Source of the DNA: an uncultured bacterium
Lineage (GTDB): Bacteria; Patescibacteriota; Minisyncoccia; UBA6257; GWB1-50-10
Direction of reading: 5' to 3'
Length of the DNA: 64,000 nucleotides
Assembly (NCBI GenBank): GCA_963713955.1
Contig: OY970216.1
Location: 136,075-200,074, forward strand
In this document: positions 12,352-54,459 of the stretch, piece by piece
Layout: each line of letters begins with the position of its first letter
Position numbering within the stretch: the first letter of the stretch is position 1
Notes under the pieces: model-generated
The model's input: the letters and a program-made list of their open reading frames with translations, nothing else
Told to the model about the DNA's origin: nothing
Database searches by the model: none
Program-made: the position numbers and the translations under genes

Positions 12352-12423
12352 CGGCACGTAGCTCAATGGCAGAGCAGACGTCTTATACACGTCCGGTTGT
12401 AGGTTCGACTCCTACCGTGCCGA
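12352..12423 (+). tRNA. tRNA-Ile, anticodon UAU (gene TAT)
   Basis: Manual cloverleaf: acceptor CGGCACG/CGTGCCG, D stem GCTC/GAGC, anticodon stem GACGT/ACGTC, loop CTTATAC, T arm GTAGG-TTCGACT-CCTAC. Confidence 0.6.
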
Positions 12424-12442
12424 CTCTCTTTCAGGCGTATCG

Positions 12443-28464: not shown

Positions 28465-28545
28465 GTCTCGGCGAACCAAAAAGGTGTGCGCTAGGGCCGC
28501 GCTTGCCAAGTCTTACCCACCTTTTTGTTTCACCGATCCTCGCTT
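28465..28545. repeat. hairpin repeat element, family A (core GTGTGCGCTAGGGCCGCGCTTGCCAAGTCTTACCCAC)
   Basis: Core 28484-28520 identical to reverse complement of 52741-52777 and near-identical to 60198-60234; flanked by AAAAGGTG/CACCTTTTT-type inverted arms. Confidence 0.5.
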
Positions 28546-45550: not shown

Positions 45551-47020
45551 ATGGAGAAATTTTACGTCACAACCGCCATACCCTATGTAAATGCTAGTCC
45601 GCATATCGGGCATTCGCTTGAATTTGTCGAGGCCGACGTGATAGCTCGCCATGAAAGGATTTTGAACAAGGATGTTTATTTTCTTTCTGGTACTGACGAG
45701 AACGCGATGAAGAACTATCAAGCGGCCGAGAAAGCCGGGATCGGCGTTCAAAATTTCGTTGACAGAAACTCTTTAGCATTCGAGACACTTTTAAAAGTGC
45801 TCAATATCTCAAACGATCAGTTTATCAAAACTACCGAAGATAGGCATAAAAAGGGAGCCCAAGCGCTCTGGACGGCTACCAAGAAGGACGATTTGTACAA
45901 GAAGACCTATCGCGGGCTTTATTGTGTCGGATGCGAGCAATTTTACGAGCCTGCCGAACTTAACGATAAGGGAGAATGTTTTGAGCATCCCGGTAAACCC
46001 TTGGAAGTCGTTGAAGAGGAGAACTACTTTTTCCATCTCTCGAGATATCAAGATTGGCTCTATGATCTGATAGTGAGCGACAAACTGAAGATAGTCCCGG
46101 AAATCAGAAAAAACGAAGTGCTTTCGTTGATAGAAAGAGGGCTTCAGGATTTTTCCGTATCGCGCCCCATCGAGCGGTCCCACGGCTGGGGGGTCACGGT
46201 GCCGAACGATGACAAGCAAACCATTTATGTATGGTATGACGCCTTAGCGAATTACGTTACCGCTCTCGGTTATCCCGATGTCGAGAGCGAACTGTACAAA
46301 AAGTATTGGCTGGAAAGTCAAACACGCCTTCATGTGATCGGCAAGGGCATAAGCCGTTTCCATGCCGTGTATTGGCCGGCGATGCTCAAGAGTGCCGGTT
46401 TACCCATCCCAACCATGGAATTCATTCACGGTTACGTGACGACCGAGGGTCAGAAAATCAGCAAGACGCTCGGCAATGTCGTAGATCCCATGGAAATAGT
46501 CAAAAAATACGGAGTTGATCCCCTTCGTTACTATTTGTTGAGAGAAATTCCGGCCTATCTGGACGGCGATTTTTCGTTCAGGAGGTTTGAAGAAAGATAC
46601 AATTCCGACTTGGCAAACGGTTTGGGCAACTTCGCCGCACGAGTTCTCACGCTCGGCGAAGGGCTGGACGGAATGAAGGATCGGGAAATCTCTCCGGATG
46701 TCGGAAGCAAAATCAGCGAAACGAAGAAAAAAATGGAGGCGGCGCTCGACGAATTCAAATTCCATGAAGCGCTCGGCTCCCTTTGGAATCTCGTCAGCTT
46801 CGGCGACGAGTACGTGAACGATAAGAAACCGTGGGCCGCCGGAGAGCGTGAGGAAAAGGAAAAGATAGTTTTCGATCTAATCGCTGTCTTGGACAATGTC
46901 GCGGCGCTCGTCCGCCCCTTCCTGCCCGGAACTTCTGAGAGAATAACCGGATGCATAGTTTGGGAAAACGGAAAGGTGAAAACGAAGAGGGGCGGGATAC
47001 TTTTCCCGCGCCTGAAATGA
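45551..47020 (+). CDS. metG: methionine--tRNA ligase (short form)
   Basis: TAIPYVNASPHIGHSLE HIGH motif, CVGCEQF...C..H zinc knuckle, KISKTLGN. Confidence 0.9.
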   Translation: MEKFYVTTAIPYVNASPHIGHSLEFVEADVIARHERILNKDVYFLSGTDENAMKNYQAAEKAGIGVQNFVDRNSLAFETLLKVLNISNDQFIKTTEDRHKKGAQALWTATKKDDLYKKTYRGLYCVGCEQFYEPAELNDKGECFEHPGKPLEVVEEENYFFHLSRYQDWLYDLIVSDKLKIVPEIRKNEVLSLIERGLQDFSVSRPIERSHGWGVTVPNDDKQTIYVWYDALANYVTALGYPDVESELYKKYWLESQTRLHVIGKGISRFHAVYWPAMLKSAGLPIPTMEFIHGYVTTEGQKISKTLGNVVDPMEIVKKYGVDPLRYYLLREIPAYLDGDFSFRRFEERYNSDLANGLGNFAARVLTLGEGLDGMKDREISPDVGSKISETKKKMEAALDEFKFHEALGSLWNLVSFGDEYVNDKKPWAAGEREEKEKIVFDLIAVLDNVAALVRPFLPGTSERITGCIVWENGKVKTKRGGILFPRLK

Positions 47021-47024
47021 GTTC

Positions 47025-47951
47025 ATGAACGAGAAGTTTTTCGATGCGCACACGCACGCGCACTTCGCCGCGTTCAAAGACGATTATCGCGAAGTCGTCC
47101 GGCGGTCTCTGGACGCCGGCGTCGGTATGATCAACGCGGGGACCCAAAAAGACACATCGGCGAAAGCAGTCGCGGTGGCGCACGAATTCGAAAGCGAGCC
47201 GGTGTATGCCGCTGTCGGACTCCATCCCATTCACACGTCGGAATCGTTCCATGACGCCGAAGAGCTGGGAGCCGACCCTTCGGTAAGTCCGGAATTCACC
47301 TCGCGGAGCGAAGAGTTTGACTATGAGTGCTACAAAAAACTGGCGCTCGATCCGAAAACGGTCGCGATCGGGGAGTGCGGCCTCGACTATGCCGCTTTTG
47401 TCCGCGAGCAACGCGAGCGGTTACAAAAGCGAGCATCCGCCGAAGCCTTGCGCGAAGGCGGATTGACCGATGACGAGATAGAAACGCAGAAGCGAAAACA
47501 GGTTGCCGCCTTTGAAGCGCAAATAAAGCTCGCCCACGAAGTCGGAAAACCTCTTATGATCCACTGCCGCAATGCTTTTAGCGACTTAATCAAAATACTT
47601 GATGCTAACTGCTCGCTACTTAATACTAGAAATCCCGGCGTCATCCATTTCTTCTCCGGCACAAAGGAAGATGCAAAGAAACTTTTAGATCTCGGTTTCA
47701 CTTTCACGTTCGGCGGCGTCATCACGTTCACGCGTGATTACGACGAAATTGTGGAATACCTTCCCTTCGACAGGATTTTGTCCGAAACCGACGCCCCGTA
47801 CGTGGCTCCGGTTCCACACCGGGGGAAGCGGAATGAGCCGGCGTACGTCATCGAGGTCGTGAAGCGGCTCGCCGAGATAAGGGGAGTTTCTTTGGAGAGG
47901 ATGGCTGGCGAGATTTTGAAAAACGCGACCCGTGTGTTTAAGTTGAACTAA
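47025..47951 (+). CDS. tatD: TatD-family hydrolase
   Basis: FDAHTHA, IGECGLDY, HCR.AF, ETDAPY; conserved metG-tatD adjacency. Confidence 0.85.
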   Translation: MNEKFFDAHTHAHFAAFKDDYREVVRRSLDAGVGMINAGTQKDTSAKAVAVAHEFESEPVYAAVGLHPIHTSESFHDAEELGADPSVSPEFTSRSEEFDYECYKKLALDPKTVAIGECGLDYAAFVREQRERLQKRASAEALREGGLTDDEIETQKRKQVAAFEAQIKLAHEVGKPLMIHCRNAFSDLIKILDANCSLLNTRNPGVIHFFSGTKEDAKKLLDLGFTFTFGGVITFTRDYDEIVEYLPFDRILSETDAPYVAPVPHRGKRNEPAYVIEVVKRLAEIRGVSLERMAGEILKNATRVFKLN

Positions 47952-47953
47952 TC

Positions 47954-48625
47954 ATGCAAGCGGTAATTTTGGCGGCAGGCCTTGGGACGAGGATGAAGGA
48001 ACTCACGGTGGATACCCCAAAGCCGCTCTTGAAGATCGGCGAAAAAACGCTTCTCGAGTACAAGCTCCAGAACCTTCCCGATGAGATAGACGAAGTGGTG
48101 CTTGTCATCGGCTATCTGGGAGATCAGATAAAGTCCGCGTTCAACGGGAAGTTCCGGGGCCGCAAGATAACGTACGTCGAGCAAAAGGAATTGAAGGGGA
48201 CCGGCCACGCACTCTCGCTTTGCAAGCCGTTTCTCGCGGGCAGATTTCTCGTCTTGATGGGGGACGACTTGTACGCCAAGGAGGATCTCGAAAAATTAGT
48301 GAGCTATCCTTTGTCGGTTTTGGGCTGCGAGCTTAAAGAGGATATCTCGGGAGTAAAGCGGGCGGAAATAAAAACAGACGCCTCGGGCAGGGTGACGGAA
48401 ATCGACGAAAATTCTCCTGCAAGGAAGGGTATGCTCGAAAATGCGGCGGCCTACGTTTTGGACGAAAGTTATTTTGAATATCCCCTGAAGCCGGCTGATT
48501 CGAATTCGAAAGAGTTCGGCCTGCCGCAGACCATGGCGCAAATGGTGAGGGATGGGAAAGACATAAAGATTGTGAGGGCAACGTGGTGGAAGAAAGTCAC
48601 CTGCCCGGAAGACTTGAGGTTTTAG
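47954..48625 (+). CDS. sugar-phosphate nucleotidyltransferase
   Basis: AVILAAGLGTRM....PKPLL signature of NTP_transferase family. Confidence 0.7.
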   Translation: MQAVILAAGLGTRMKELTVDTPKPLLKIGEKTLLEYKLQNLPDEIDEVVLVIGYLGDQIKSAFNGKFRGRKITYVEQKELKGTGHALSLCKPFLAGRFLVLMGDDLYAKEDLEKLVSYPLSVLGCELKEDISGVKRAEIKTDASGRVTEIDENSPARKGMLENAAAYVLDESYFEYPLKPADSNSKEFGLPQTMAQMVRDGKDIKIVRATWWKKVTCPEDLRF

Positions 48626-48628
48626 CTC

Positions 48629-48697
48629 GCCACGTACCTCCGCTCAGGCAGTCTCCGGGGCGACGCCCAAGTCTTAGCCTTCGCGGAGGTACGTGGC
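48629..48697. repeat. hairpin repeat element, family B (core GGCAGTCTCCGGGGCGACGCCCAAGTCTTAGCCTTCGCG)
   Basis: 15-bp arms GCCACGTACCTCCGC/GCGGAGGTACGTGGC around core 48647-48685; second copy 54119-54158. Confidence 0.5.
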
Positions 48698-48752
48698 TCG
48701 CTTTCTTTCGTCAACCTTCAAAAAGGGGCTGTTTTTGTTTAGAATAGACCTC

Positions 48753-51700
48753 ATGAAGGGGAAGTACGACTTCGCGAAAATCGAGAAGAAGTGGCAAAGG
48801 GAATGGCTCAAAACCGGGATCTACGAGCCGGACATAAAGGGGGCCGCCAAACCTTTCTACAACTTGATGATGTTCCCGTACCCGTCGGCAGAAGGACTCC
48901 ATGTCGGGAATATGTACGCCTTCACCGGATCAGACATCTATGGCCGCTTCAAGCGGATGCAGGGGTACGATGTTTTCGAGCCGATGGGTCTCGACGGGTT
49001 CGGCATCCACTCGGAAAATTACGCCCTGAAGGTCGGCACGCATCCCCTCAAGCAGGCGGTAATTTCCGAGAAGCGTTTTTACAAGCAATTGGAGATGATT
49101 GGAAACGGCTTCGCGTGGAGAGAACATTTAGAGACCTACGATCCGGAATATTATAAGTGGACACAATGGCTTTTCGTCCAAATGTGGAGGCACGGACTTG
49201 CCTATCGCAAGAAGCAATCCGTCAATTGGTGTCCAAAGGACAAGACGGTCTTGGCAGATGAGCAGGTGATTGCGGGGAGGTGCGAACGCTGCAATGCGAT
49301 CGTCGAGAAAAAAGAATTAGAACAGTGGTTTTTCAAGATAACCGCATATGCCGACCGGTTGCTTGCGAATTTGGATAATATTGATTGGTCTGAAAAAGTA
49401 AAAGTTGCCCAGCGGAACTGGATTGGGAAATCGGAAGGAGCACTCCTGAAATTCCAAATTACAAATGGCAAATCCCAAATAAATTCCAAATCACAATTTC
49501 CGAAACTTGAAATTGAGGTATTTACCACTCGGCCTGATACACTTTTCGGAGCCACGTACGTGGTACTGGCTCCCGAGCATGAGTTTATCAACGAGCTGAA
49601 GGATCGGATTTCAAACTTCGAGAAAGTCGGGAAGTATATTAAAAAAGCAGTAAGCAAGCCCAATGAGGAGAGAATCGCGGAGGGGAAAGAAAAGACCGGC
49701 GTGGAACTGAAAGGCATCGTGGCGGTGAACCCGGCGAATGGAAAAGAGACCCCGGTCTGGGTCGCCGATTACGTTTTGGGCGGCTACGGCACGGGAGCGA
49801 TCATGGCCGTTCCGGCACACGACGAGCGCGATTTTGCGTTCGCGAAGAAATTCCACCTGCCGATTCGTCAAGTTATCGCCCGGGAAACTGGCACGTTGCG
49901 TCCCCATGAAGAACGGCGGGACGGGGGGTACGGTGTTATTTTTGATCCTCAAACCCAAAAATATGCCGTGGCGACGCATCCTGACGGGGTGATACGGTTA
50001 TTCGGTGGCGGCGCTGATGATGGAGAGAGTAAAAAAGAAGGGACCCTCCGGGAGATAACTGAAGAAAGTGGTCTTTATGATTTTAGTTATGTGGAAGAGA
50101 TCGGGACGTCTTTCTCCCACTTCCGCAACCGACGCAAAAAAGTTTATCGTTCCGCTTTAACGGCTTGCTTTCTTACAATCCTCCGGAGTAACGCCGTGAA
50201 AGAGCGACATCTCGAGCCGCACGAGGCGGAACTCAGCCTTGATTGGATGATGCCGGAGGCAATCGTGAAGAACTGGGAAGGCCACAACCAGGAGCACGAT
50301 CTCGATCATTGGCTCATATTCTTCCGCGAGGCTGTCGCCCGTGCCGTCGAACTTGGCTACGACACGACGAGCGATCCGAAGCTCTTCTTTTCGGAGGCCT
50401 TTTGGGGGACCGGCATGCTCGTGAACTCCGGAAAATTCGATGGGATGGATTCGGAGAAGGCGAAGTGGGAAATTACGAAATTTGTTCATGGCGAGAAAAA
50501 GACGCAGTTCCATTTGCGTGATTGGCTGATTTCCCGTCAGCGTTACTGGGGCCCGCCGATTCCCATGATCCACTGCGAGAAATGTGCGAAGGAAGGTAAG
50601 GGCGAGAACAAGGAAATGCCCGGCTGGTACGCGGTTCCGGAGAAAGACCTTCCCGTCAAACTTCCGGTCGTCGAAGATTTTCGTCCGGAGGGGAAAGGCG
50701 AATCGCCGCTTTCGTCGGTTAAGTCGTTTTATGAGGTAGAGTGTCCGGCTTGCGGTGGTAAAGCGCATCGCGAGACGGATGTTTCCGATACGTTTCTCGA
50801 TTCTTCGTGGTACTACATTGGTTATTTAATGAAGTTTGGAAATTGGAAATTGGAATTTGGAAATTCCGCGTTTGCGGAGCGAATGCGGCGGTGGTTGCCG
50901 GTTGACATGTATATCGGCGGCGCCGAACATTCTGTGCTCCATCTTCTCTACTCACGGTTTGTCTCGATGGCACTCCATGATTGGGGTTTGGTCGATTTTG
51001 AAGAGCCGTTCACGAAGTTCCGGGCGCACGGTCTCGTGGTTAAAGAAGGTGCGAAGATGTCCAAATCGAAAGGGAACGTGGTGAATCCTGACAAGTATGT
51101 CAGGAATTTCGGCGCCGATGCGCTCCGGATGTATTTGATGTTTATGGCACCTCTTGAGCAGGGCGGAGATTTCCGTGACAGCGGCATCCTTGGTATCACG
51201 CGGTTTCTGGATCGAGTCTGGAAACTCATCGTTACTGCATTGGATCCGAAAAAATCCATGCGGCCTGCGTCGAAGTCGGAGGAAACCTACCGCGTGCCGG
51301 ATGACTTCAAGCGCGCCATTCACCGGGCGATCAAAAAAGTGACGGGGGATATCGAAAACCTCCAGTATAACACCGCGATCAGCGCCCTCATGATCCTTTT
51401 GAACGAAGCGGAGCGACAAGAGCAAGTTATTGACCTGCCGCGTTACTTCTTCGAAGACTTTTTGAAACTCCTCGCGCCATTTGCACCGCACATGACTGAA
51501 GAACTGTGGCGTGAGTTGGGTAATAAGACGTCAATTCATAAGGAGGCGTGGCCGGAGTATAATGAGAGTGTTCTTAAGGAGGACTTTATTGAGATTGTGG
51601 TCCAGGTGAATGGGAAAAGGAGGGGCAGCGTTTCGGTGAGGGAGAATTCTTCCGAGGGGGAAGTGAGAGAAAAAGCGCTCCAGATCCAAAATGTCCGCGT

Positions 51701-51770
51701 AGCGCTCGGCGACCACAAGCCCCAAAGAGTTGTGTACGTGAAAGGTAGGATTATCAACCTGGTGATCTGA
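48753..51770 (+). CDS. leuS: leucine--tRNA ligase carrying an inserted Nudix hydrolase domain
   Basis: HVGN (HIGH variant), TTRPDTLFGATYVVLAPEH and GTGAIMAVPAHDERDFAFA editing motifs, Nudix box GGGADDGESKKEGTLREITEESGL, RDWLISRQRYWGPPIP, KMSKSKGN; start at MKGKYD. Confidence 0.9.
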   Translation: MKGKYDFAKIEKKWQREWLKTGIYEPDIKGAAKPFYNLMMFPYPSAEGLHVGNMYAFTGSDIYGRFKRMQGYDVFEPMGLDGFGIHSENYALKVGTHPLKQAVISEKRFYKQLEMIGNGFAWREHLETYDPEYYKWTQWLFVQMWRHGLAYRKKQSVNWCPKDKTVLADEQVIAGRCERCNAIVEKKELEQWFFKITAYADRLLANLDNIDWSEKVKVAQRNWIGKSEGALLKFQITNGKSQINSKSQFPKLEIEVFTTRPDTLFGATYVVLAPEHEFINELKDRISNFEKVGKYIKKAVSKPNEERIAEGKEKTGVELKGIVAVNPANGKETPVWVADYVLGGYGTGAIMAVPAHDERDFAFAKKFHLPIRQVIARETGTLRPHEERRDGGYGVIFDPQTQKYAVATHPDGVIRLFGGGADDGESKKEGTLREITEESGLYDFSYVEEIGTSFSHFRNRRKKVYRSALTACFLTILRSNAVKERHLEPHEAELSLDWMMPEAIVKNWEGHNQEHDLDHWLIFFREAVARAVELGYDTTSDPKLFFSEAFWGTGMLVNSGKFDGMDSEKAKWEITKFVHGEKKTQFHLRDWLISRQRYWGPPIPMIHCEKCAKEGKGENKEMPGWYAVPEKDLPVKLPVVEDFRPEGKGESPLSSVKSFYEVECPACGGKAHRETDVSDTFLDSSWYYIGYLMKFGNWKLEFGNSAFAERMRRWLPVDMYIGGAEHSVLHLLYSRFVSMALHDWGLVDFEEPFTKFRAHGLVVKEGAKMSKSKGNVVNPDKYVRNFGADALRMYLMFMAPLEQGGDFRDSGILGITRFLDRVWKLIVTALDPKKSMRPASKSEETYRVPDDFKRAIHRAIKKVTGDIENLQYNTAISALMILLNEAERQEQVIDLPRYFFEDFLKLLAPFAPHMTEELWRELGNKTSIHKEAWPEYNESVLKEDFIEIVVQVNGKRRGSVSVRENSSEGEVREKALQIQNVRVALGDHKPQRVVYVKGRIINLVI

Positions 51771-51775
51771 TCTCT

Positions 51776-52705
51776 ATGAGGTATATTCTCATCATCATTG
51801 TTCTCATCATTGCCGTCATCGCCATCGTGAACGTTTTCCAACAAATGAAAGGCGTGGTGAAGTTCGAAGATTTATCATCCTTTTTAAAGATATCTTATAA
51901 GGGACCGTCGGTTGCAACGACGAGTCCCGGGTCGATTTCTGTCGGGGTCGAGAAGGGAACGGCGGCAACCTCGGGTTCGAACACTGCTCCCCAAGCACAG
52001 AACCCAACCAAGCCCGCGGTCACGCCGCCACCGGGTTTCACGGTTGAGGAACTCTCTCCGTACTACCAGAAAGTCACGATCGGTAACGTTTTCATCGCTT
52101 ACGGCAATTACGGCATGAGCCAGATATCGCTCAATGCTTCGTACTCATTGAATTCACCTGTCGACATAACGGGTTGGTCGCTCAGCTCCAACAAGGGATC
52201 GATGGTTGTCCCCCAAGCGATTGGCGACTTCAGCGCGTACGGTTTCGGAAATAACGCGGACATCGTTTTCGCGACCTCGAGCCGTCTCGACATTTACGAT
52301 ACGTACAGCCCCATAAATAAAAATCTTAGGATGAACCAGTGCAGCGGCTACCTCAATGACATCTACAGTTTCAAGCCGGCTCTCCAGTGCGGGTATACGA
52401 GCTTGTACGACCGTTCGGGGATATCGGCATTTCCTGGTGATTGCCAAAGTTTCATCTTGTCCCTGAACAGCTGTGAAATCCCTACGCAAGTGGAACTTAA
52501 TTCTTTCGCCAATGAACCCGATTGCCGATCTTTTTTGAACAGATTTAGCTATGCCGGCTGTTATAATCTCAAGAGGGCGTCGTCCGATTTTTTCCTGAAT
52601 CAGTGGGTCGTCTGGACGCCGGGTGCGTGGCCTTTTGACCAGAACCACGATCGAGTTCTTCTCCTCGACAAAAACGGCCTCCTCGTTGACGAGTATATCT
52701 ACTAA
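51776..52705 (+). CDS. hypothetical membrane-anchored extracellular protein with 8 Cys
   Basis: N-terminal TM helix; no known motif. Confidence 0.45.
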   Translation: MRYILIIIVLIIAVIAIVNVFQQMKGVVKFEDLSSFLKISYKGPSVATTSPGSISVGVEKGTAATSGSNTAPQAQNPTKPAVTPPPGFTVEELSPYYQKVTIGNVFIAYGNYGMSQISLNASYSLNSPVDITGWSLSSNKGSMVVPQAIGDFSAYGFGNNADIVFATSSRLDIYDTYSPINKNLRMNQCSGYLNDIYSFKPALQCGYTSLYDRSGISAFPGDCQSFILSLNSCEIPTQVELNSFANEPDCRSFLNRFSYAGCYNLKRASSDFFLNQWVVWTPGAWPFDQNHDRVLLLDKNGLLVDEYIY

Positions 52706-52718
52706 CCTAAAGTGGCTA

Positions 52719-52800
52719 GGAGGAGTGGTGATACGAAAAAGTGGGTAAGACTTGGCAAGCGCGGCCCTAGCGCACACTTTTTCGTATCACCACTCCTCTC
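52719..52800. repeat. hairpin repeat element, family A (inverted orientation) between convergent genes
   Basis: Perfect 22-bp arms GGAGGAGTGGTGATACGAAAAA / TTTTTCGTATCACCACTCCTC around core 52741-52777. Confidence 0.55.
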
Positions 52801-53849
52801 TACTTTCTTTCGGCCAATACAACTTTAGTTTCCAGTTCCTTCCCTCCTCTTAAAATCTTGAGTTTCACTTCGTCGCCGACTTTAGAGTTTTCCAGAAAAT
52901 CCTGAATCGAGCCGCCATGTATTTGCCGGCCGTTCCACTCGAGAATGATGTCTTTTTCTTTTATGCCGCCCCTGTCAGCGGGGCTTCCCGCGACAACCGC
53001 TTCGTCCATGGGGTGCTCCTTCGTAACATAAACGCCGTAGCCGACGGGGAAAGACATTTTGGCGCTTAGGTTTTCGTCTATGGTTACGTACCGCACGCCG
53101 AGGAGAGGTCTCCGTATCCTTCCGAATTTTTTCAAATCATTAATGTCTCTTGTGGCGGCGTTGATGGGGATGGCGAAATTTATGTTTTGCGCTCCGGCGA
53201 CGACGGCGGCGTTGATGCCGATCACCCGTCCTGACATATCGACCAAAGGGCCGCCGGAGTTTCCCGGATTGATCGCGGCGTCCGTCTGGATGAGTCCGCG
53301 CATTTCTTGAATCGGTTCTCGGGGGTCCGGTTTCGCTTTGACGGATCGCGAGAGTCCCGAAATGATTCCCAGGGAAACCGTGTTCTTGAAAATGCCGAGG
53401 ACGTTTCCGATCGCGAGGACCGTTTGTCCCAGGTCGAGATCGGAAGAATTCCCGAGCTTGAGGAATGGGAAATATTTTTTATGCGCCGCGCCGCGTCCGG
53501 CGACTTTCAATATGGCGATATCGTCCACCGGGTCGCGGGCCAGAAGCTCGGCGCCGAGGACCTCCTCCTCGTCGGTTATCACTTTGTAGCTCACGTGGGA
53601 TTCGGCGATCACGTGTTTGTTCGTGAGGACGATCCCGCTCCGGTCAACGAAGAAGCCGGAACCCCCGCCGACTTCCACTCTCCCTTCTGCATCTGCTTTC
53701 TCACGGAATATCGATGCGGGTGTTTTTCTTCGCTGGTCGCTGCTGAGTTCCTTTTTCAGATCGGCGATGTCCTTTGAAAGCACTATCGAAACGACCGCCG
53801 GCATGGTTTTCTTGATTATTCTTATCGTTTTTGCATCGCTCATAGCCAT
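52800..53849 (-). CDS. htrA: HtrA/DegP-family serine protease with PDZ domain
   Basis: GSGFFVD..G.VLTNKHV (His), D, GNSGGPLVD (Ser) triad, C-terminal PDZ. Confidence 0.85.
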   Translation of the reverse strand: MAMSDAKTIRIIKKTMPAVVSIVLSKDIADLKKELSSDQRRKTPASIFREKADAEGRVEVGGGSGFFVDRSGIVLTNKHVIAESHVSYKVITDEEEVLGAELLARDPVDDIAILKVAGRGAAHKKYFPFLKLGNSSDLDLGQTVLAIGNVLGIFKNTVSLGIISGLSRSVKAKPDPREPIQEMRGLIQTDAAINPGNSGGPLVDMSGRVIGINAAVVAGAQNINFAIPINAATRDINDLKKFGRIRRPLLGVRYVTIDENLSAKMSFPVGYGVYVTKEHPMDEAVVAGSPADRGGIKEKDIILEWNGRQIHGGSIQDFLENSKVGDEVKLKILRGGKELETKVVLAERK

Positions 53850-54099: not shown

Positions 54100-54172
54100 G
54101 CGAGACGCCTCCTCGCTCGGGCAGTCTCCGGGGCGACGCCCAAGTCTTAGCCTTCGCGAGAAGGCATCTCAC
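54100..54172. repeat. hairpin repeat element, family B, second copy
   Basis: Core 54119-54158 identical to 48647-48685 except 2 nt; arms GAGACGCCTCCTCGC / GCGAGAAGGCATCTC. Confidence 0.5.
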
Positions 54173-54348: not shown

Positions 54349-54387
54349 ATTTATCTCTCTTCTTTCTTCGCCGGGGGGATTGGAATG

Positions 54388-54459
54388 TGCCCTCGCGAAG
54401 AATCGAACTTCGATCCGCGCGTTAGGGGTGCGCTGTTCTGTCCGTTGAACTACGAGGGC
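54388..54459 (-). tRNA. tRNA-Arg, anticodon CCU, with C33 and an A31-C39 mismatch
   Basis: Acceptor GCCCTCG/CGAGGGC, D stem GTTC/GAAC, anticodon loop CCCCTAA, T arm CGAAG-TTCGATT-CTTCG. Confidence 0.5.

What the first reader, a model, noticed from the sequence alone, without database searches (positions are those of the whole stretch)
49885..50400. Complete Nudix hydrolase domain inserted inside LeuRS between the editing domain and catalytic core
After the conserved end of the CP1 editing domain ([31 protein letters not shown]) about 170 extra residues appear. The normal LeuRS sequence then resumes (GMLVNSGKFDG...RDWLISRQRYWGPPIP). The insert has a perfect Nudix box, GGGADDGESKKEGTLREITEESGL, matching G-x5-E-x7-REUxEE-xGU at nt 50005-50073. 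It also has upstream beta-strand-like segments (GYGVIFD, YAVATHPDGVIRLFGGG) that align well with MutT-type Nudix folds. aaRSs make Ap4A and aminoacyl-adenylates, so a built-in pyrophosphohydrolase could clear these side-products or take part in editing. I am not aware of a described LeuRS-Nudix fusion.
Basis: partly seen in the sequence, partly recalled or inferred. Interest (0 to 1): 0.8.

Follow-up and report, generated by a model that had tools for sequence, protein, structure and literature searches.

The report
Swappable Nudix enzyme nested inside LeuRS
The leucyl-tRNA synthetase of this uncultivated Patescibacteria bacterium carries a complete, apparently active Nudix hydrolase inside a surface loop of its proofreading domain. 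Relatives gain, lose and exchange this module, and the same module sits inside other tRNA-handling enzymes, which no searchable paper describes.

Summary

It is not a chimera. An independent assembly is 100% identical, and dozens of LeuRS from NCBI, JGI, ENA and Logan share the architecture.

One correction: the insert lies inside the CP1 editing domain, about 40 residues before its end, not between CP1 and the core.

New findings:
- The insert matches, end to end, free-standing ~170-aa Nudix proteins of the same phylum.
- It behaves as a cassette. Two syntenic orthologous leuS loci (91% backbone identity) differ only by its presence, and a second Nudix subtype occupies the same loop.
- The same Nudix family is nested in RNase PH, ArgRS and an IleRS-like protein. 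A second CP1 loop hosts alpha/beta-hydrolase, Ham1 or DUF559 domains.

The catalytic residues are conserved, and the insert is under purifying selection as strong as the backbone. The substrate is unknown. The most likely role is a tethered nucleotide pyrophosphohydrolase; a part in Leu-AMP editing is unlikely. This is a new variant of known kinds, and I found no description of it.

The parts
48753..51770 (+). leuS gene: bacterial-type leucyl-tRNA synthetase of 1005 aa plus stop codon. The listed ORF begins at a GTG at 48693, but the ATG at 48753 is the start.
   Evidence: NCBIfam TIGR00396 leuS_bact scores 898 bits against a cutoff of 548. The product is 100% identical to P0019 over 1005 aa. 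The full-length AF2 model (pLDDT 85.7, pTM 0.73) superposes on E. coli, Thermus and Neisseria LeuRS with TM 0.74-0.85 normalised to the target.
48900..48911 (+). Class I 'HIGH' signature, present here as HVGN (second His replaced by Asn).
   Evidence: Translation. H50 and G52 are invariant and N53 nearly invariant among 61 Patescibacterial LeuRS.
49413..49883 (+). CP1 editing domain, first part (aa 221-377). It includes the T-rich motif TTRPDT (49524-49541) and the editing motif AHDERD (49815-49832).
   Evidence: Pfam PF13603 scores 196 bits, matching model positions 1-153 of 185. Motifs checked by translation and conserved in the alignment.
49458..49502 (+). 'Site A' loop of CP1. In this window it holds only the low-complexity peptide ITNGKSQINSKSQFP. 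In relatives it hosts whole domains (alpha/beta-hydrolase, Ham1, DUF559, a further Nudix).
   Evidence: Alignment; Pfam scans. pLDDT is below 50 at aa 241-248.
49884..50372 (+). Nested Nudix hydrolase domain (aa 378-540, ETGTLRPHEERRDGG...ELGYDTTS), occupying the 'site B' loop of CP1.
50007..50075 (+). Nudix box GGADDGESKKEGTLREITEESGL (aa 419-441), a perfect match to GX5EX7REUXEEXGU.
   Evidence: Regex and translation. G419/G420, E425, R433, E434, E437, E438 and G440 are each 94-100% conserved in 63 embedded and 74 free-standing copies; the motif is shown for individual proteins.
50373..50411 (+). Return linker DPKLFFSEAFWGT (aa 541-553). Free-standing copies lack it. A similar (S/N)DPxxF linker follows the nested copies in RNase PH.
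   Evidence: Alignments. pLDDT is above 90 in the full-length model.
50412..50522 (+). CP1 editing domain, last part (aa 554-590, GMLVNSGKFDG...HLRD), leading into RDWLISRQRYWG.
   Evidence: Aligns to T. thermophilus LeuRS from residue 375 onward. Second matched stretch of PF13603.
51054..51068 (+). KMSKS catalytic loop.
   Evidence: Translation; invariant or nearly invariant in the alignment.
51315..51767 (+). Anticodon-binding and C-terminal tRNA-binding region.
   Evidence: Pfam PF08264 scores 84 bits. Aligns with the C-terminal region of T. thermophilus LeuRS.

Best explanation
The gene encodes the cell's working LeuRS. A complete, catalytically competent Nudix pyrophosphohydrolase is nested in a permissive surface loop ('site B') of its CP1 editing domain. 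The chain leaves CP1 after ...LPIRQVIAR, folds into an autonomous Nudix domain, and returns through a 13-aa linker to finish CP1.

The module is a cassette belonging to a Patescibacteria-specific Nudix family. That family exists free-standing and also nested in several tRNA-handling enzymes. The cassette is gained, lost and replaced between close relatives, most plausibly by recombination in the highly conserved flanking leuS sequence.

Most likely mechanism (inferred, not shown): the domain works on its own as a Mg2+-dependent hydrolase of a free nucleoside-polyphosphate compound. Candidates are dinucleoside polyphosphates such as Ap4A, or non-canonical NTPs/NDPs. In this reading it is a 'house-cleaning' activity that is tethered to, and co-expressed with, enzymes that consume ATP or release NDPs at tRNA ends. 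LeuRS aminoacylation and post-transfer editing would proceed unchanged.
For: Shown:
- One ORF with intact LeuRS motifs and a LeuRS equivalog score above cutoff.
- Nudix box, Pfam hit and fold.
- The same DNA in an independent assembly, and the same architecture in dozens of LeuRS from four data sources.
- In a scan of GTDB species genomes, 24 of the 80 best hits are inside LeuRS and 56 are free-standing, all from different assemblies.
- Catalytic residues are 94-100% conserved. Further family-wide residues are R389, H456, R466, E488, E491 and W498.
- Non-synonymous divergence of the insert (pN 0.04-0.22) equals or is below that of the backbone (0.10-0.34), while synonymous sites are saturated.
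- Cassette behaviour: P0024 (with Nudix) and P0083 (without) share 91% backbone identity. Their loci are fully syntenic and 82-89% identical in DNA, and differ by about 590 nt versus about 150 nt of unrelated sequence at the loop. Two Nudix subtypes that are only about 20% identical sit in LeuRS backbones that are 70-80% identical.

Supporting the nucleotide house-cleaning reading (inference):
- Ham1/ITPase-like domains are co-nested with the Nudix in P0062 and P0243, and His_Phos_1 in P0214.
- Nudix is nested in RNase PH, an NDP-releasing enzyme.
- Genes next to free-standing copies weakly recur as NDK, HIT, CYTH and a second Nudix.
- The nearest solved folds include NTP pyrophosphohydrolases and Ap4A/Ap6A hydrolases.
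Against: - Nesting in four different enzymes that bind tRNA acceptor ends could instead point to an RNA-end substrate.
- The orientation of the Nudix active site relative to the editing and synthetic sites could not be measured, because no model coordinates or PAE were available.
- Neighbourhood signals are weak (4-9 of 56 loci).
- Whether genomes that lack the nested copy always carry a free one was not established.
Confidence: 0.5

Rival explanations
1. tRNA-directed module. The Nudix acts on an RNA end rather than on free nucleotides, for example by removing a 5'-triphosphate or an NAD/Np4N-type cap, or by resolving a pyrophosphate-linked adduct on tRNA. On this view it is attached to enzymes that hold the acceptor end.
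For: The same Nudix family is nested in LeuRS CP1 (two loops), an IleRS-like enzyme, ArgRS and RNase PH. All of these bind the tRNA acceptor end. RppH and RNA-decapping Nudix enzymes are among the structural neighbours. The weak NCBIfam hits are to RNA pyrophosphohydrolase models. A basic stretch, HFRNRRKKVYR, lies in the domain.
Against: The NCBIfam RppH and YtkD scores are far below their cutoffs (13-18 bits against 116-154). Co-nested Ham1 acts on free NTPs (family knowledge). Free-standing copies show no tRNA-gene or tRNA-enzyme neighbourhood. The module is dispensable for an orthologous LeuRS.
Confidence: 0.2
2. Neutral or selfish passenger. CP1 loops simply tolerate insertions of compact domains. 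The cassette spreads by recombination and brings no benefit connected with LeuRS. Its enzymatic role, if any, is unrelated housekeeping, and the fusion only provides expression.
For: Unrelated domains (alpha/beta-hydrolase, Ham1, DUF559 endonuclease-like, and other unidentified 75-120 aa inserts) occupy the same two loops. Presence and absence alternate among close relatives. One family member is nested in a GNAT/Peptidase_M17 protein.
Against: Catalytic residues are strictly conserved and purifying selection is at least as strong as on LeuRS itself. Two divergent Nudix subtypes were recruited to the same loop, and up to three Nudix copies occur per LeuRS. Host proteins are enriched for tRNA enzymes.
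Confidence: 0.2
3. One reading: the Nudix takes part directly in LeuRS quality control by hydrolysing mis-activated aminoacyl-adenylate (pre-transfer editing), or specifically clears LeuRS-made Ap4A.
For: The insert lies about 20 residues downstream of the editing motif AHDERD, inside CP1. Ap4A/Ap6A hydrolases are among the fold neighbours.
Against: Aminoacyl-AMP lacks the diphosphate linkage that Nudix enzymes cleave (superfamily knowledge). The editing-site motifs are intact, so no replacement function is needed. Orthologues lack the insert. The same cassette is found in RNase PH, which makes no adenylate, and in ArgRS. A free-standing form exists.
Confidence: 0.07
4. Artefact: a frameshift, an assembly chimera, or a pseudo-domain that has lost its activity.
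For: None found. Only rare relatives have a degenerate box: P0092, the R-to-H change in P0020, and the E-to-A change in P0008.
Against: An independently assembled Logan contig is 100% identical over 4114 bp. The ORF is continuous. Many homologues exist. The fold is predicted with confidence inside the full protein. The window's own Nudix box is intact.
Confidence: 0.01

Closest known systems
Bacterial leucyl-tRNA synthetase (T. thermophilus 1H3N/2BTE, E. coli 4AQ7)
   Same: All domains and motifs are present, with 31-36% identity and TM 0.77-0.85 to solved LeuRS structures. The CP1 editing motifs, KMSKS and the C-terminal domain are intact.
   Different: A 176-aa Nudix module plus linker replaces a 7-20 aa loop inside CP1. 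The HIGH signature reads HVGN.
Nudix hydrolase superfamily. Nearest solved structures: E. faecalis MutT/nudix 2AZW (function unknown), T. thermophilus Ndx2 and Ndx1 (Ap6A hydrolase), Bdellovibrio NudF, E. coli RppH, NudI/YfaO
   Different: Only 13-21% identity to any solved member. It has its own family motifs (EERRDGG, FDPxxQKYA, H..N..NR, ExHE, HW and a C-terminal helix ending ELGYD). It is restricted to Patescibacteria in the hits seen, and it is nested in other enzymes.
Free-standing Patescibacterial Nudix proteins (P0001-P0018; for example 'NUDIX domain-containing protein [Candidatus Parcubacteria bacterium]')
   Same: 49-57% identical over their entire length, with the same box and family motifs.
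   Different: They are separate ~170-aa genes with their own start codon, they lack the DPxxF return linker, and they are not next to leuS.
Class Ia synthetases with an extra enzyme domain, for example NCBIfam NF040702 'isoleucine--tRNA ligase, N-acetyltransferase domain-containing'
   Same: A precedent for an unrelated enzyme domain carried by a class Ia aaRS (model listed).
   Different: The partner domain and the host differ. That model scores only 57 bits against a cutoff of 1999 here, so this protein is not a member.
Editing domains that exist both embedded and free-standing (AlaX, YbaK/ProX, DTD; from my own knowledge), and the RNase PH-RdgB(Ham1) gene linkage or fusion in other bacteria (from my own knowledge)
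   Same: The same module occurs in cis within a tRNA enzyme or in trans as a small protein. House-cleaning NTPases are associated with RNase PH.
   Different: Those editing modules hydrolyse aminoacyl esters and belong to the aaRS reaction cycle. Here the module is a pyrophosphohydrolase with no shown link to the LeuRS reaction.

Membership tests
Bacterial LeuRS (TIGR00396 leuS_bact) | Equivalog HMM score above the curated cutoff | tested here: met
   898.1 bits against a cutoff of 548.4.
Bacterial LeuRS (TIGR00396 leuS_bact) | Class I signatures HIGH and KMSKS | tested here: met
   KMSKS is at 51054-51068. The HIGH position reads HVGN, a lineage-wide variant that keeps the first His and the Gly.
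Bacterial LeuRS (TIGR00396 leuS_bact) | CP1 editing domain with the T-rich motif and the conserved Asp motif | tested here: met
   PF13603 scores 196 bits. TTRPDT and AHDERD are present.
Bacterial LeuRS (TIGR00396 leuS_bact) | Leucylation and editing activity | not testable with these tools
   Needs biochemistry.
Nudix hydrolase superfamily (PF00293) | Nudix box GX5EX7REUXEEXGU | tested here: met
   Exact match at 50007-50075.
Nudix hydrolase superfamily (PF00293) | Pfam score above the gathering threshold | tested here: met
   25.3 bits (whole protein) and 29.3 bits (insert) against 21.1.
Nudix hydrolase superfamily (PF00293) | Nudix alpha/beta/alpha sandwich fold | tested here: met
Nudix hydrolase superfamily (PF00293) | Metal-dependent pyrophosphohydrolase activity | not testable with these tools
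   Inferred only, from 94-100% conservation of the box residues.
RNA pyrophosphohydrolase RppH / YtkD | NCBIfam equivalog score above the cutoff | tested here: not met
   Best scores are 18.2, 16.9 and 15.4 bits against cutoffs of 118, 154 and 116.
Intein or other self-excising insert | Hint/intein domains and splice-junction residues | tested here: not met
   No such Pfam hit at E<=1. The insert matches a free-standing enzyme end to end. Its boundaries lack conserved Cys/Ser...His-Asn residues (read directly from the sequence).

The most novel reading that the evidence does not exclude
The Patescibacterial Nudix family is a dedicated, exchangeable accessory module of the tRNA machinery. It plugs in cis into LeuRS, IleRS, ArgRS or RNase PH, or acts in trans when free-standing. 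Its job would be to remove a pyrophosphate-linked species at or near the tRNA acceptor end, such as a 5'-ppp or cap on tRNA, or locally produced Np4N or NDP. That would be a previously unrecognised layer of tRNA or nucleotide quality control in ultra-small symbiotic bacteria.
Probability: 0.22. Interest if true: 0.85.

Novelty: new variant of a known kind. Interest (0 to 1): 0.66.

Why it matters
Bacterial aminoacyl-tRNA synthetases are usually regarded as architecturally conservative. Here a whole second enzyme sits inside the proofreading domain of an essential synthetase in a major uncultivated bacterial radiation, and it behaves as a swappable cassette.

Nature has already supplied matched controls: P0024 and P0083 are orthologous LeuRS with and without the module. 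That makes direct experiments possible on whether nested domains affect aminoacylation or editing.

Nesting of one Nudix family in LeuRS, IleRS-like, ArgRS and RNase PH proteins gives a testable functional lead for an uncharacterised Nudix family. It also bears on how genome-reduced symbionts organise nucleotide or RNA sanitation.

The two permissive CP1 loops may also be useful as natural insertion sites for protein engineering.

Tried and rejected
- **Chimera or frameshift:** rejected.
- **Recent foreign DNA:** no GC anomaly across the insert.
- **Transposon-like footprint:** only a 12-nt direct repeat (49817-49828 and 50362-50373). Its spacing is 545 nt, not a multiple of 3, and it does not sit at the junctions, so it is probably chance. 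The P0024/P0083 comparison shows no remnant or scar.
- **Split leuS flanking the free-standing Nudix genes:** no LeuRS fragments within 4 kb.
- **Substrate assignment by sequence or profile against PDB:** only Nudix-box-level matches. NCBIfam gave only sub-threshold RppH/YtkD hits.
- **Foldseek against AFDB:** library unavailable.
- **Polarity of evolution (free to nested, or nested to free):** a midpoint-rooted NJ tree puts the free-standing copies as one shallow group inside a deeper nested diversity. There is no outgroup or support value, so I do not rely on it.
- **LeuRS backbone NJ tree:** star-like. I used only the pairwise identities and the synteny.
- **Search for type-2 relatives:** returned only 2 hits because of the word index. 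Free-standing relatives of type 2 were instead found among the representatives. My T1/T2 regex misclassified some sequences, so I used only the individual identities from it.
- **Docking geometry of Nudix against the editing and synthetic sites:** not obtainable, because the tools return no coordinates or PAE.
- **Literature:** seven searches, no relevant paper.
Full report
**Observation**

The window carries one long ORF at 48693..51770 on the + strand. The product from the ATG at 48753 (1005 aa) is identical to a database protein, P0019, which is seen on a contig of 804,691 bp. It scores 898 bits against NCBIfam's bacterial LeuRS equivalog, whose cutoff is 548. Pfam finds the class I catalytic domain, the LeuRS editing domain and the anticodon-binding domain, plus NUDIX at aa 407-515 with 25.3 bits against a threshold of 21.1. 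The insert alone scores 29.3 bits, E=1e-6.

T. thermophilus LeuRS aligns to aa 4-381 and 548-1005, so about 168 residues replace a short Thermus loop at residues 368-375. The Nudix box GGADDGESKKEGTLREITEESGL lies at 50007-50075. It is the only such motif in all six frames of the window.

One correction is needed. The insert is inside CP1, not after it. The Pfam editing-domain model is split by it (positions 1-153 of 185 precede the insert). The segment GMLVNSGKFDG...HLRD that follows the insert still aligns with T. thermophilus LeuRS ahead of the RDWLISRQRYWG motif, within the CP1 region.

**Not an artefact**

- A contig assembled independently from run ERR10755942 (Logan) is 100% identical to window 48657-52770.
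- GC content is even across the insert.
- Of the 120 best LeuRS relatives listed, about half carry a precomputed PF00293 hit. They are 946-1262 aa long and come from NCBI, JGI, ENA and Logan assemblies.
- The distance between the AHDxRD and RDWxxSRQRYWG motifs is 58-105 aa in plain LeuRS and 212-239 aa in the Nudix-bearing ones.

**Structure**

In the full-length model (pLDDT 85.7, pTM 0.73) the Nudix region and its return linker have pLDDT 90-97. The flanking CP1 segments are mostly confident as well, apart from the low-complexity site A loop (aa 241-248, pLDDT below 50). The model superposes on solved bacterial LeuRS with target-normalised TM of 0.74-0.85. Both enzymes therefore appear folded and intact. 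The T-rich motif TTRPDT, the editing motif AHDERD and KMSKS are all present.

**What the insert is related to**

Searched alone, the insert finds only free-standing Nudix proteins of 168-186 aa from Parcubacteria and Patescibacteria, at 49-57% identity over about 90% of the query. They align end to end with it. MxxxIPEFGIKRENEERRDGGCGVIFDPQTQKYAV...ARAKELGYDTTS in the free proteins corresponds to ETGTLRPHEERRDGGYGVIFDPQTQKYAV...ARAVELGYDTTS in the window.

A profile scan of one genome per GTDB species found 150 relatives. Of the best 80, 24 lie inside LeuRS ORFs and 56 are separate genes. All are in Patescibacterial MAGs and each comes from a different assembly. No leuS lies within 4 kb of any free copy.

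Against 1.84 billion cluster representatives the family is small: 479 hits at E<=1e-3 and 105 at E<=1e-10.

**Selection**

The box residues G419/G420, E425, R433, E434, E437, E438 and G440 are 94-100% conserved in 63 nested and 74 free copies. R389, H456, R466, E488, E491 and W498 are also conserved across the family.

Between related leuS genes the synonymous sites are saturated (pS about 0.75-0.9). Non-synonymous divergence of the insert (0.04-0.22) is equal to or lower than that of the backbone (0.10-0.34). Within type-1 LeuRS the insert is as conserved as the LeuRS C-terminal domain. This is the pattern expected of an active enzyme, not a decaying passenger. Rare exceptions exist: P0092 has a degenerate box, and P0020 has R changed to H.

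**Cassette behaviour**

Two Nudix subtypes occupy the same loop. Type 1 resembles the window's insert. Type 2 (...GGIEEGED...REVxEETGY...) is only about 20% identical to it, although the host backbones are 70-80% identical. Free-standing relatives exist for type 2 as well, at 40-55% identity.

After removing the insert columns, P0024 (type 1) and P0083 (no insert) are 91% identical. P0072 (type 2) and P0095 (no insert) are 85% identical. P0101 (type 2) is 81-82% identical to both P0024 and P0083.

The P0024 and P0083 loci are fully syntenic. The gene order is prepilin peptidase, pilins, TsaD, a bestrophin-like protein, isochorismatase, leuS, a 324-aa protein, an HtrA-like protease, Exo_endo_phos and RNase Y. 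They are 82-89% identical in DNA. Homology breaks only at the loop, where about 590 nt in one locus face about 150 nt of unrelated sequence in the other. The module has therefore been gained, lost or swapped between close relatives.

I found no transposon-like footprint. Recombination within the very conserved flanking coding sequence is the simplest mechanism, but this is an inference.

**A wider phenomenon**

A second CP1 loop ('site A', between SEGAxIxF and xIxVFTTRPDT) is only a low-complexity peptide in this window (49458-49502). In relatives it hosts an alpha/beta-hydrolase (PF12697/PF06821), a Ham1-like domain (59.6 bits), DUF559, or further Nudix copies, up to three per LeuRS.

The same Nudix family is also nested in other proteins:

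| Host | Members | Note |
|---|---|---|
| RNase PH | P0173, P0185, P0187, P0224 | Inserted between the two RNase PH domains; P0173 is on a 284-kb contig |
| ArgRS | P0226, fragment P0250 | P0226 is on a 33-kb contig |
| IleRS-like protein | P0214 | Together with His_Phos_1 |
| Class I aaRS N-terminus | P0243 | Follows a Ham1 domain |
| GNAT/Peptidase_M17 protein | P0161 | Not a tRNA enzyme |

The RNase PH copies share the type-1 motifs and the (S/N)DPxxF return linker seen in LeuRS.

**Function**

The following is shown:
- LeuRS is intact.
- The nested Nudix is intact, conserved and well folded.
- It is autonomous, since free-standing homologues exist.
- It is dispensable for LeuRS, since orthologues lack it.

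The substrate could not be inferred. PDB sequence matches are limited to the box. Fold neighbours span NTP, ApnA, ADP-sugar, PP-InsP and RNA-decapping enzymes at similar scores. RppH and YtkD models score far below their cutoffs.

My preferred reading (confidence 0.5) is a tethered house-cleaning pyrophosphohydrolase acting on free nucleoside polyphosphates. The reasons are:
- It travels with Ham1, and in one case with a histidine phosphatase.
- It also sits in NDP-releasing RNase PH.
- Free copies occasionally neighbour NDK, HIT, CYTH or another Nudix.

The main rival (0.2) is an RNA-end-directed activity, suggested by the striking bias of hosts towards enzymes that hold the tRNA acceptor end. 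A purely neutral passenger (0.2) fits the promiscuity of the loops but not the strength of selection. The adenylate has no diphosphate bond, and the cassette also occurs where no adenylate is made.

**Comparison with what is known, and novelty**

The host is a member of bacterial LeuRS and the insert is a member of the Nudix superfamily. All testable defining features were met. Seven full-text searches found no description of a LeuRS-Nudix architecture or of enzyme domains nested in CP1 of Patescibacterial synthetases. The sequences are public, but where a source gives them a name it is only 'leucyl-tRNA synthetase' or 'class I tRNA ligase family protein'; most carry no name.

Known analogies are of three kinds. 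One is aaRS with appended enzyme domains, such as the NCBIfam ileS_w_GNAT model listed. From my own knowledge, the others are editing modules that exist both in cis and in trans (AlaX, YbaK) and the RNase PH-RdgB linkage. I therefore rate this a new variant of known kinds, with above-average interest. The reasons are the nested architecture, its cassette dynamics, and its recurrence in several tRNA enzymes.

**Limits**

- No model coordinates or PAE were available, so the docking geometry is unknown.
- Only the top 150 of 479 family hits were visible.
- The trees are NJ without support values.
- Complementarity of free and nested copies within genomes, and the direction of evolution, remain open.
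- The organism is known only by similarity, as a Patescibacteria/Paceibacteria-like MAG.

Noticed in passing
window 49458-49502; relatives P0033, P0036, P0062, P0084, P0104, P0160, P0235: A second insertion hot spot ('site A') lies at the start of CP1. In the window it is a low-complexity loop (ITNGKSQINSKSQFP). In relatives it holds an alpha/beta-hydrolase, Ham1, DUF559 (Vsr-like endonuclease fold) or extra Nudix domains.
   Followed up: partly
L086 4001-5548 (P0173); L087 4001-6574 (P0226); P0214; P0243; P0161: The same Nudix family is nested in RNase PH, in ArgRS, in an IleRS-like protein (together with His_Phos_1), after Ham1 at an aaRS N-terminus, and in a GNAT/Peptidase_M17 protein.
   Followed up: partly
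window 48900-48911: The class I HIGH signature of this LeuRS reads HVGN (second His replaced by Asn). This is conserved across the Patescibacterial LeuRS that were aligned.
   Followed up: partly
window 54387-54459 (-): A well-scoring tRNA (Rfam 55.7 bits) that ARAGORN calls anticodon CUA ('Pyl'). The anticodon loop (CCCCTAA) lacks U33 and could also be read as CCU. TAG still ends 11 of 37 long ORFs, so there is no global reassignment.
   Followed up: partly
window 12352-12424 (+): tRNA-Ile with anticodon UAU, next to tRNA-Val(UAC). This anticodon is an uncommon way for bacteria to read AUA.
   Followed up: no
window 48657-48685 and 54130-54158; 52720-52770 and 28491-28541: Short intergenic repeats: 29 nt at 100% identity, and 51 nt at 90% identity in inverted orientation. 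They coincide with the ends of the independent Logan contig, which suggests dispersed repeats that break assemblies.
   Followed up: no
window 49817-49828 and 50362-50373: An exact 12-nt direct repeat, ACACGACGAGCG, roughly brackets the insert. Its spacing (545 nt) is not a multiple of 3 and it is not at the junctions, so it is probably chance.
   Followed up: yes
window 45551-53849: A co-directional cluster of metG (489 aa), a TatD-like hydrolase, a nucleotidyltransferase and leuS. It is followed by a 309-aa protein of unknown function and a divergent HtrA-like protease. The arrangement leuS, unknown protein, HtrA is conserved in L083 and L085.
   Followed up: partly
P0045/P0118 and P0091/P0123 (LeuRS relatives): Other unidentified inserts of about 75 aa and about 120 aa occupy the same site B loop in place of Nudix.
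   Followed up: no
P0020 (L003), P0092, P0008: Rare family members have a damaged Nudix box: R to H in the closest LeuRS relative, a degenerate box in P0092, and E to A in one free copy. Activity may have been lost occasionally.
   Followed up: no
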